A stretch of DNA of 64,000 bases, from contig OX597819.1 in NCBI GenBank assembly GCA_951406725.2, positions 74,400,001 through 74,464,000 on the forward strand, written 5' to 3'. The translations under genes were made by a program, and so were the position numbers. Origin of the DNA: Octopus vulgaris. Its lineage: Eukaryota. The notes beneath the pieces were generated by a model, which worked only from the letters and a program-made list of their open reading frames with translations, was not told the origin of the DNA and ran no database searches. Of this stretch, positions 32,428-35,154 are shown one piece after another. The first letter of the stretch is position 1. Each line of letters starts with the position of its first letter.

Positions 32428-32839
32428 TAGGATTTCTGTTCGCACACACAACAAATCCCTACCGCTTACCATAAGCTATGAAACAGTTTTTTTCAGCCTA
32501 TCGAAATTCGTTACGAGAAACACTTACAACCTTTTTCGCCAATAAACCGCTATTGTCCCTGAAGGTTGTTTTTTTTATACTTTCTACGGACTGTTCGAAG
32601 CTTACTGTCTTCCTACACCTTGATCCTTAGATCTTACCTTTACTTATACATCCATGCATATATACATACGTACATATATATATATATATATATATATATA
32701 TATATATATATATATATATATATATATATATATAGCAAGGAAAAATTGTAAAAAGGCAAAATGCTAAATTGAAAGAAAATTTTAATGACAATGGGTGTAT
32801 GGAAAAGTTTCTGAAAAACTGATAAAATAAATATACATT

Positions 32840-32881
32840 AATTCAAACCAGTTTTCGTCATAATGTGACTTTTCAAGAATT
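32840..32881 (-). ncRNA. hammerhead motif, UUGAAAA (U3-A8) core, copy 1
   Basis: AATTC-TTGAAAA-GTCA-catta-TGAC-GAAA-ACTGGT-TT-GAATT. Confidence 0.65.
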
Positions 32882-33124
32882 GTAAAGAAAAGAAATTTTT
32901 TTAAATGTGCGGAGGGAAAAAAAAGAAAATTACATTGTTTTTTGCAAAAAAATAAAAATAAATATATACAAAAATTAAAAAATAGGTACTCCGATACATT
33001 GTAAAGTCTGTGTGTATCTTGAGTTTAATGATTGTTCACGAAAAAATGCTAAATTGAAAGAAAATTTTAATGACAATGGGTGTATGGAAAAGTTTCTGAA
33101 AAACTGATAAAATAAATATACATT

Positions 33125-33166
33125 AATTCAAACCAGTTTTCGTCATAATGTGACTTTTCAAGAATT
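33125..33166 (-). ncRNA. hammerhead motif, UUGAAAA core, copy 2
   Basis: Identical to copy 1, offset by 285 bp. Confidence 0.65.
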
Positions 33167-34551
33167 GTAAAGAAAAGAAATTTTTTTTAATGTGCGGAGG
33201 GAAAAAAAAGAAAATTACATTGTTTTTTGCAAAAAAATAAAAATAAATATATACCTTGAAGTATTGAGATCCAATGGGATTAAATCCATGTGTTGTTTAA
33301 TTTAATTAAGGGTGTCTCTTAAGTGCATGGCAAACAGGAAGTAGTAGTAGTCCAGTTCCTGTGTTGTGAATAAGGGGAGACAACTCTATGGGCTTTAAGC
33401 TCTTCAATTTATGTTCATCAATTTTTTGTAATAAAGGGTGTTAATAAACCTTAAATTATAAAATTATCATTTTAGCTTCATTTGCATTATCTTTTTTATA
33501 TAATTGTTTGCTAACTTAACATTCAGATTTTAACACTTTATTTATATTGTTTTCTAATTATATAAATTTGCATAAACCAATTTATAATTACATTTCAGAT
33601 TGTTATGTCATATATAATAAAAAAAAAAAAAATAATAATAATAATAACAATAATAATAATAATGATATTTAAAGAATATAAGTTTTAGCTTGAGGTGATG
33701 ACTGCATGGTATCCTTATATATTTATGTTAGTCCATCCATGAAGAATGAGGTAGAAAAAAGAAGTATGATCAACGAGGAGTTTGCATATTATGATGCGTT
33801 TTGAATTTTTCAGTAAAGAGATTCTCCTTGTTAGTTCTCTCCTGTGTGGTGATTCCGTCTTTACATTGGTAGAAGGGGAATATGTAGAATTTGGGATTTT
33901 TGTCTTTAGCGCATGAGTCTATGTGGTCACTCAGTGGGATTTGCCGGTATTCCGGGAGATTTATTTGTTCTTTATGCACCGCTACTCTTTTACGTAACGG
34001 GAGGCTCGTTTGTCCAACATAATTATGTTGGCAACCAGCGCATGTGAGAACGTAGATAAGGTTCTCGGAGGAACAGGAGAAGTTGGTCTTGATTTTAAAC
34101 TTCGTTCCTTGTTTGAAGATAAATTCAGAGCCTTCAAGTAGGAAGGGGCAGGTGCCACAGTTTGGGCGTGCACATTTTTTAACTGCTGGGGGTGGATGTT
34201 GTGTGTGAAGTTTGGCATTTGTCAAGAGTTTTTTAAAGATTTGTGTTGCCTTTTACATTTGAGGATTTTGTGTGTATTTATAATGTTTTTCATTTTTGGG
34301 TCTGTTGACAGTAGACTGAGGTTTTGTATGATTGTAGTGTATGCTTCGATATTTTTGGGGTTGTGGGTGGAAATGTATGGAAGTATTTTGGGGTTGTGTG
34401 TGGTGTTGGGTTGGGATGGTTTTCAGTGTAATGTTGTCTAGTTCTTTGGCGCGTTTTATTCGATACTCTATAAGGGTAGAGGGATATTGGCGTTGTAATA
34501 GTGTTTTTTTGAGGTCTTGAAGGCGTATTTCTTTTCTTTTCTTTTCTTTAC

Positions 34552-34593
34552 AATTCTTGAAAAGTCACATTATGACGAAAACCGGTTTGAATT
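34552..34593 (+). ncRNA. hammerhead motif, UUGAAAA core, inverted copy 3
   Basis: AATTC-TTGAAAA-GTCA-catta-TGAC-GAAA-ACCGGT-TT-GAATT, with a palindromic AACCGGTT stem III. Confidence 0.7.
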
Positions 34594-35154
34594 AATATAT
34601 ATATATTTTATCAATTTTTCAAAAACTTTTCCATACACCCATTTTCATTAGAATTTTCTTTCAAATTAGCATTCTGCCTTTTTACAATTTTTCCTTGATT
34701 ATCATTTCTCCACGTGCGGTCAACACAACCCCACCATTTATTGATCTATATATATATATATATATATATATATATATATATATATATATATATATATATA
34801 TATATATATATATATATACTTACATACATACATACATACATACATACATACATACATATATATATATATATATATATATATATATATATATATATATATA
34901 TATAGCCACTATACATTCTTTATATTCTCTCCTTGTTTCTTTGTCTTCCTTTCTATGGAAGAGCGTAGGCTCGAAATGTTAAAAACTTTTTCACTTCCCG
35001 GGCGTTAAACTAATACATCTATTTGTTGTCTACACCACCTGTCTTCATCTTTTGTTTTTTGTGTGTGAACTCTTTCCCTATACATACATACATACATACA
35101 TACATACATACATACATACATATATATATATATATATATATATATATATATATA

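What the first reader, a model, noticed from the sequence alone, without database searches (positions are those of the whole stretch)
32735..34745. Penelope element with three hammerheads bearing the compensatory U3-A8 core and a 285-nt tandem spacing
Seen: the core UUGAAAA replaces CUGANGA at exactly positions 3 and 8, with intact stems I-III and a UUU site. Two sense copies lie 285 bp apart downstream of the GIY-YIG ORF, and one inverted copy lies at the 5' truncation. Established: C3-G8 is a tertiary Watson-Crick pair in the active hammerhead, and swaps that keep the pair can retain activity. Inference: the double change signals selection for catalysis, standard CUGANGA searches would miss this family, and the tandem pair could form the dimeric ribozyme in cis and release a 285-nt circularisable RNA.
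Basis: partly seen in the sequence, partly recalled or inferred. Interest (0 to 1): 0.72.

Follow-up and report, generated by a model that had tools for sequence, protein, structure and literature searches.

The report
Penelope hammerhead with known U3-A8 swap
This is a truncated copy of a Penelope-type jumping gene whose end repeat carries a likely self-cutting hammerhead RNA with an already published core swap (U3-A8), shared by about 870 copies in the genome, while the 285-base tandem pair occurs at this locus only and is predicted to fold poorly.

Summary
The three motifs are real: UUGAAAA cores at 33161(-), 32876(-) and 34557(+), in a 5'-truncated Penelope-like element with a GIY-YIG remnant. 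U3 is family-wide: 874 pattern matches have U3, 4 have another base (all C3-A8), none C3-G8. Across subfamilies, changes fall on N7, loop II and two compensated stem pairs, so the fold is under selection. It is not new: U3-A8 hammerheads in Penelope elements, including the same UUGAAAA core, were published in 2014 (PMC4209133), and natural U3-A8 in 2011 (PMC3088659). The 285-nt spacing is a one-off templated duplication (net 204 nt). None of 29 sister loci has it, and the pair's private signature occurs only here. Both tandem copies carry a C>U change that halves the predicted dimer helix (-5.0 versus -10.1 kcal/mol), so a 285-nt circle is unlikely. Cleavage is untested. 54 of 60 sampled copies read through the cut site, and the most abundant subfamily has lost one U there. 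A second Penelope family in this genome has a G3-C8 core (5,431 matches); the scan had noted this before on other DNA.

The parts
32840..32881 (-). Hammerhead copy 2, the element's normal 3' pLTR copy: U3 32876, A8 32871, N17 32845; helix III palindrome carries a C>U change
33125..33166 (-). Hammerhead copy 1, inside the extra duplicated segment: U3 33161, N17 33130; same C>U change
34552..34593 (+). Hammerhead in the inverted short pLTR copy: U3 34557, N17 34588; perfect family palindrome
32735..32969 (-). Native 3' pLTR end, stopping at the family's short 3' end (about 110 nt past the cut site), against (TA)n
32970..33042 (-). 73-nt family 3' UTR segment that in sister copies joins directly to position 33252
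   Evidence: (20 of 20 loci that cover both sides)
33043..33254 (-). Locus-private extra copy of the hammerhead segment (212 nt; net insertion 204 nt; 3-nt and 5-nt microhomology at its ends; no family base lost)
33255..33769 (-). AT-rich 3' UTR of the element
   Evidence: 93-96% identical to sister copies
33770..34540 (-). 3' remnant of the RT-EN ORF in two frames: linker with CX4CxxC and C-terminal GIY-YIG; RT core lost by 5' truncation
   Evidence: aligns to residues 498-753 of the RT-EN frame of L033
34538..34745 (+). Inverted short pLTR copy ending at the family's long 3' end (tail, about 157 nt past the cut site), against (TA)n

Best explanation
This is a 5'-truncated, broken copy of an endonuclease-bearing Penelope-like retroelement whose end repeat carries a minimal type I hammerhead with a family-wide U3-A8 core, likely a slow ribozyme that would need a partner copy to cut, and the 285-nt tandem is a locus-private duplication that likely has no function. 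Shown: the element anatomy, the family-wide core, compensatory stems across subfamilies, two discrete 3' ends and the uniqueness of the tandem. Inferred from published PLE work: in full-length loci (pLTR-ORFs-pLTR, 4.6-kb unit) two hammerheads pair through the palindrome AACCGGUU, probably with help from the element's protein, and cut weakly after U17. Reverse transcription starts internally at two sites about 100-117 and 150-163 nt downstream of the cut site and usually runs through the hammerhead, so cutting is not needed for each insertion. The extra segment most likely arose by microhomology-guided template switching, after insertion (about 65%), during reverse transcription (about 25%) or as an assembly error (about 10%).
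For: Core and stems. Family counts: 874 U3 against 4 non-U3; 94 U3-A8 and 6 U3-G8 of the first 100 listed of 106. Subfamily comparison: 9 variable columns of 42, 5 of them among the 6 free positions (N7, loop II), p=8e-4; the other 4 are two compensated pairs. Full-length relatives carry RVT_1 and GIY-YIG, with hammerheads 4601-4617 nt apart. Two 3' ends, 46-52 nt apart, in all 80 alignments. Tandem: 0 of 29 sister loci; signature only at the two window copies; 6 private substitutions shared by the pair and absent from the inverted copy, and 1 difference between the pair in 212 nt. Literature: U3-A8 in Cercyon PLEs, about 1,300 hits, and low dimer-only activity of min-HHRs (PMC4209133); protein-assisted cleavage that is dispensable for insertion in vitro, with internal RT starts (PMC11167929).
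Against: Overall identity inside the motif is no higher than in its flanks (S1 versus S3: 34/41 inside, 203/253 upstream, 127/135 downstream); only the placement of changes argues for selection, and the seven rows are related. The most abundant subfamily (586 matches) lacks one U next to the cut site, and five separate loci carry U3-G8, so the constraint is loose or the motif is losing activity. The dating of the duplication is weak: with the body's private-change rate (12/1266), one difference in 212 nt has p=0.09 if the duplication is as old as the insertion. Folding energies ignore tertiary contacts and proteins.
Confidence: 0.8

Rival explanations
1. One reading: the tandem pair folds as a cis dimer, cuts twice and releases a 285-nt RNA that is circularised, a newborn retrozyme derived from a pLTR.
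For: Both copies keep all core nucleotides and stems I and II. The nested dimer topology can be built. 285 nt is within the 150-450-nt range of animal retrozymes (PMC7229834 passages), and a 2026 preprint derives retrozymes from pLTRs (10.64898/2026.07.22.740005, part 1 read).
Against: Single locus. Helix III duplex -5.0 versus -10.1 kcal/mol. Predicted pairing probability 0.0 for stem I and helix III; the dimer fold lies 24.9 kcal/mol above the ensemble, 12.2 even with the family palindrome. No upstream sense pLTR in this truncated copy. Published min-HHR dimers cut poorly.
Confidence: 0.07
2. The U3-A8 motif is a decaying hammerhead now kept mainly as a folded or protein-binding element of the pLTR, with negligible cleavage in vivo.
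For: 54 of 60 copies read through the site and only one starts exactly at it. The most abundant young subfamily lost a U at the site. U3-G8 copies lie at five loci. In the anole element, catalytic mutants did not affect insertion in vitro.
Against: All catalytic positions are invariant across the subfamily rows while N7, the one free core position, takes A, U and C. Read-through is also expected from multimeric or re-ligated templates. A natural one-base insertion in the GAAA strand is listed among core variants in PMC3088659.
Confidence: 0.2
3. The extra 212-nt segment is an assembly error and the real allele has one sense hammerhead.
For: The two copies differ at only one base, in a homopolymer boundary.
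Against: The order (upstream UTR, extra segment, 73-nt segment, original) with microhomology at both ends and no lost base is not a simple tandem.
Confidence: 0.1

Closest known systems
U3-A8 minimal hammerheads of Schistosoma mansoni Cercyon PLEs (Cervera and de la Pena 2014, PMC4209133; main text parts 1-2 of 4 and supplement parts 1-2 of 3 read)
   Same: Type I hammerhead in the pLTR; U3-A8 missed by the standard descriptor; supplement Fig. S3 lists S. mansoni(4) with UCC UUGAAAAA and a UU site, and Saccoglossus(1) with U3-G8; opposite-strand pairs and solo truncated copies are described.
   Different: Here there is no extra base between A9 and G10.1, stem II is 4 bp, and helix III is a long palindrome (8 nt from A15.1 to U16.1), closer to the Aedes and Drosophila variants of the same paper. 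Different host and PLE family.
Poseidon element of Anolis carolinensis, PAc (Frangieh et al. 2024, PMC11167929; parts 1-2 of 4 read)
   Same: Hammerhead near the ORF start; two internal RT start sites downstream of it that make the tail; AT-rich targets.
   Different: PAc has C3-G8 and its ORF starts inside the hammerhead. Here the first ATG lies about 180 nt past the cut site and just beyond the long 3' end, and the linker is of the Neptune type.
Neptune-type EN+ PLEs (Craig et al. 2021, PMC8557442; passages read)
   Same: C-terminal GIY-YIG, CX2-5CxxC linker, microsatellite targets, inverted 5' copy, tail.
   Different: No tree was built. Full-length relatives here appear to have two overlapping frames joined at a T6A site rather than one ORF.
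Natural U3-A8 hammerheads (Perreault et al. 2011, PMC3088659; abstract and one section read)
   Same: Same covariation of the 3-8 pair, reported in several natural examples.
   Different: The section read does not tie them to retroelements.
Metazoan non-LTR retrozymes (PMC7229834, passages read; bioRxiv 10.64898/2026.07.22.740005, part 1 of 5 read)
   Same: Two type I hammerheads a few hundred bases apart on one strand.
   Different: Retrozymes are dispersed families of head-to-tail repeats with canonical hammerheads and expressed circles; this is one rearranged locus attached to an ORF remnant.

Membership tests
EN+ Penelope-like element (Neptune type) | C-terminal GIY-YIG endonuclease | tested here: met
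   PF01541, E 1.4e-4, 22.6 bits at cut-off 22.6
EN+ Penelope-like element (Neptune type) | RT upstream of EN, with DKG and YxDD motifs | tested here: met
   Absent from the truncated window copy; present in the 91%-identical relative L033 (RVT_1 E 4e-7; KEADKG and YLDD)
EN+ Penelope-like element (Neptune type) | CX2-5CxxC linker between RT and EN | tested here: met
   CARPNCGTC in the window frame; motif as stated in PMC8557442. The paper gives Nematis a Zn-finger-like linker too, so this does not exclude Nematis.
EN+ Penelope-like element (Neptune type) | pLTR partial tandems, inverted 5' copy, optional tail, microsatellite target | tested here: met
   the tail is 46-52 nt, slightly longer than the published 30-40
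EN+ Penelope-like element (Neptune type) | RT phylogeny groups with Neptune | not tested
   no reference PLE proteins were fetched
Minimal type I hammerhead of PLEs | Core N3-UGA-N7-N8-A9 with Watson-Crick 3-8 pair, GAAA, A15.1-U16.1, H17, G10.1-C11.1 | tested here: met
Minimal type I hammerhead of PLEs | Palindromic helix III allowing dimers | tested here: inconclusive
   Met in the family and the inverted copy (-10.1 kcal/mol); weakened in both tandem copies (-5.0)
Minimal type I hammerhead of PLEs | Extra nucleotide between A9 and G10.1 (usual in metazoan min-HHRs) | tested here: not met
   also absent in Marsupenaeus and Saccoglossus(2) of Fig. S3, so it is not universal
Minimal type I hammerhead of PLEs | Self-cleavage after H17 | not testable with these tools
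   needs a bench assay
Non-LTR retrozyme | Dispersed family of head-to-tail 150-450-nt repeats, each with a hammerhead | tested here: not met
   Single locus and not head-to-tail; no other same-strand pair under 1 kb among the first 100 listed matches
Non-LTR retrozyme | Expressed unit-length linear and circular RNA | not testable with these tools
   only contigs were available

The most novel reading that the evidence does not exclude
The locus is a retrozyme caught at birth: a chance duplication put two U3-A8 pLTR hammerheads 285 nt apart, and read-through RNA, helped by protein from the young sister subfamily, is cut twice and closed into a circle. This happens in a genome where Penelope hammerheads use three Watson-Crick versions of the 3-8 pair (C-G, U-A, G-C) and where the dominant subfamily spreads with a one-base-shifted cut site.
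Probability: 0.07. Interest if true: 0.6.

Novelty: new member of a known kind. Interest (0 to 1): 0.22.

Why it matters
As it stands it adds one more host and PLE family to the published U3-A8 hammerheads, and shows that CUGANGA and Rfam searches undercount PLE ribozymes by hundreds to thousands of copies here. The subfamily series (intact site, U3-G8, one U lost in the most abundant lineage) and the G3-C8 family make a natural panel for the open question of whether PLE hammerheads must cut for the element to spread. The 285-nt tandem would matter only if it were shown to cut and circularise.

Tried and rejected
Rfam scan of 30000-38000: no hammerhead family among 70 matches, most of them microRNA models on simple repeats. 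C3-G8 sister with the same stem II and palindrome: none; the 4 non-U3 matches are C3-A8 at two places. Direct genome-wide search for two motifs 100-500 nt apart was not possible, so tandem absence rests on 29+20 inspected loci, three first-100 lists and one signature search. Footprint of cleavage at copy 5' ends: 3 of 60 within -5..+6 of N17 and 3 more at +9..+19; most lie in the (TA)n run or at inversion junctions and one starts exactly at the site, not taken as evidence. Sequencing runs: no RNA holder listed. Contigs of four runs laid on 32990-33215: no listed contig bridges the duplication junction, which proves nothing; two runs hold 90- and 108-nt pieces with no difference from the window copy. 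U3-G8 copies share no second diagnostic change across all five loci, so a single sub-lineage is not shown. G17 register for the young subfamily: rejected on inspection because it leaves only four A-U pairs and a bulged C in stem I. Lunse et al. on PLE hammerhead dimers was seen only as a title in a reference list; it may already list these or G3-C8 variants. One alignment had a wrong coordinate and was redone.

Full report
Observation. A structural scan of the whole window, with positions 3 and 8 left free, found three type I hammerhead folds, all with UUGAAAA: U3 at 33161(-), 32876(-) and 34557(+). Stem I is AAUUC/GAAUU, stem II is GUCA/UGAC with G10.1-C11.1, followed by GAAA, a palindromic helix III and U17. 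The sense cut sites are 285 nt apart and lie in a 212-nt repeat. Rfam shows no hammerhead among 70 matches at E<=10. The frame 33773-34252(-) is a GIY-YIG domain preceded by a CX4CxxC linker. One correction: only the inverted copy has the perfect palindrome AACCGGUU; both tandem copies read AACUGGUU.

The element. The genome is 2.8 Gb and holds many relatives. Full-length copies of a young sister subfamily (91% protein identity) carry RT and GIY-YIG, with hammerheads 4601-4617 nt apart. The hammerhead lies in the pLTR, about 180 nt before the first ATG. In 60 loci fetched with sequence downstream of the cut site only (the top 30 of 40 scored in each), all 80 alignments end at one of two positions 46-52 nt apart, nearly always against simple repeats. 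The window's sense copy ends at the short position and its inverted copy at the long one. This is the PLE tail and inverted-copy anatomy described in PMC8557442 (passages) and explained by two internal RT starts in PMC11167929 (parts 1-2 of 4). The window copy is 5'-truncated and lacks the RT core.

The core. U3-A8 is a family property. A pattern with this stem II and palindrome gives 874 matches with U3 and 4 with another base, all C3-A8, none C3-G8. For the window's own subfamily, 94 of the first 100 listed matches of 106 are U3-A8 and 6 are U3-G8. Across seven hand-picked subfamily rows (the tandem copy and the U3-G8 row left out), 9 of 42 columns vary. Five of these are among the six free positions (N7 = A, U or C, and loop II), p=8e-4, and the other four are two compensated pairs: A-U to U-A in stem I and A-U to G-C in stem II. 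On all nine rows, 100% of cells pair. The G-C stem II variant marks a true sub-lineage of two loci. The rows are related, so the p-value is a guide only, and total identity inside the motif is not above that of the flanks. Selection on the fold is therefore supported. Selection on efficient cutting is less clear: the most abundant subfamily (586 matches to a narrower pattern) has lost one U, leaving a 6-bp palindrome and an extra A in the GAAA strand; five loci carry U3-G8; and 54 of 60 copies run more than 5 nt through the cut site, although multimeric or re-ligated templates would give that too.

The tandem. In all 20 of the 29 sister loci that cover both sides, window position 33252 joins directly to 33047; none of the 29 has a second sense hammerhead nearby, nor do 20 longer loci. 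The window has an extra copy of the hammerhead segment inserted at that junction, with 3-nt and 5-nt microhomology and no loss. The two copies are sisters in a tree of 99 rows (28 short rows dropped). They differ at 1 of 212 bases and share six substitutions that the inverted copy lacks and that at most 1 of 47 subfamily copies has. A 31-nt signature with one mismatch allowed hits only these two places in the genome. No other same-strand pair under 1 kb appears in the first 100 listed matches. Folding predicts a helix III duplex of -5.0 kcal/mol against -10.1 for the family, pairing probability 0.0 for stem I and helix III in the 451-nt transcript, and a dimer fold 24.9 kcal/mol above the ensemble (12.2 with the family palindrome). 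These numbers omit tertiary contacts and proteins. The age of the duplication is uncertain (p=0.09 against duplication at insertion), and it is not confirmed in independent data.

Mechanism. Shown: anatomy, counts, covariation, 3' ends, uniqueness of the tandem. Inferred from published work: PLE min-HHRs are inactive as monomers and weak as dimers (PMC4209133); the anole motif cuts only with the element's protein, depends on the 3-8 pair, and is dispensable for insertion in vitro. I therefore read the family motif as a slow, partner- and probably protein-dependent ribozyme in the pLTR, and the tandem as a microhomology-guided template-switch accident.

Comparison with what is known. Cervera and de la Pena report the U3-A8 covariation in S. 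mansoni Cercyon PLEs, missed by their first descriptor, with about 1,300 hits. Their Fig. S3 lists the same UUGAAAA core with a UU site, and a U3-G8 example in Saccoglossus (supplement parts 1-2 of 3 read as text, figures only partly legible). Perreault et al. report natural U3-A8. The locus fails the retrozyme test on dispersal and repeat form. Lunse et al. could not be read and may bear on all variants here.

Beyond the coordinates. A second PLE family (RT and GIY-YIG upstream on the same strand in L120) has a G3-C8 core: 5,431 matches, 94 of the first 100 listed G3-C8; 18 matches have C3, two of them C3-G8 with different loops. I saw G3-C8 only as a laboratory mutant in the papers returned by searches (passages), and not among the 56 families of Fig. 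S3. Earlier notes of this scan had already flagged it in this genome; I found it before that look-up.

Verdict. Real, well-supported hammerhead motifs of a published variant in an ordinary PLE insertion; the feature that made the finding look special, the 285-nt pair, is a single-locus rearrangement with a damaged dimer helix. New member of a known kind; interest 0.22.

Noticed in passing
L049:5357 and L120:2479-5230; genome-wide: A second, unrelated PLE family has a G3-C8 hammerhead core in 5,431 pattern matches, mostly in short copies that begin 15-20 nt before stem I. In long copies that point follows a CTAAC, pyrimidine tract and AG, like a 3' splice site, so the short copies may come from spliced RNA (inference).
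   Followed up: partly
L033:4583-4625 and 586 genome matches: The youngest and most abundant subfamily has lost one U at the cut site (GAAAACCGGUUGAAUA); an intermediate copy, L093, keeps three U.
   Followed up: partly
L031-L046, L070, L094; 65-66 nt upstream of the IINLS codons: All 19 alignments have a T6A run where an upstream ORF (about 365-380 aa to its first stop, varying by copy) overlaps the RT frame; in 14 of 19 it is phased as a -1 frameshift site would be. No strong hairpin is predicted downstream. One literature search found nothing on this for Penelope elements.
   Followed up: partly
Same loci: In 17 of 19 alignments the RT frame breaks within 60 codons after IINLS; only L046 is open for 750 aa. 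It may be a defective but mobile lineage or a systematic homopolymer error.
   Followed up: no
L029, L055, L056, L057, L058: A8 is replaced by G at five separate loci, and three of the six private changes in the window's sense pLTR are also A>G; A-to-I editing of the template RNA is a possible cause (speculation).
   Followed up: partly
window 35160-36106 (-): Remnant of another PLE-like element next door, with a degenerate C-terminal endonuclease-like stretch (recognised from recall, no Pfam hit) and a decayed CUGAUGA hammerhead at 35240.
   Followed up: no
window 44461 (-) and 48280 (+): Two more CUGANGA motifs: a clean minimal hammerhead at 44461 and a doubtful one at 48280 with no predicted stem II.
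   Followed up: no
window 25891-26139 (-): tblastn hit to the linker and GIY-YIG part of the RT-EN protein (32% identity, E 6e-8): a further PLE fragment.
   Followed up: no
window 30703-31597: 213-nt inverted repeat (80%) around a frame that looks like a mariner-type transposase fragment (family recalled, not searched).
   Followed up: no
L127-L156: Six of 30 copies of the window's subfamily begin 48-62 nt upstream of the cut site, as does the window's inverted copy; this may mark a transcription start in the pLTR or only an A/T run.
   Followed up: partly
L052-L054 (G000:C28, about 8.9 kb apart): Three C3-A8 copies form a local tandem array of one mutated element.
   Followed up: no
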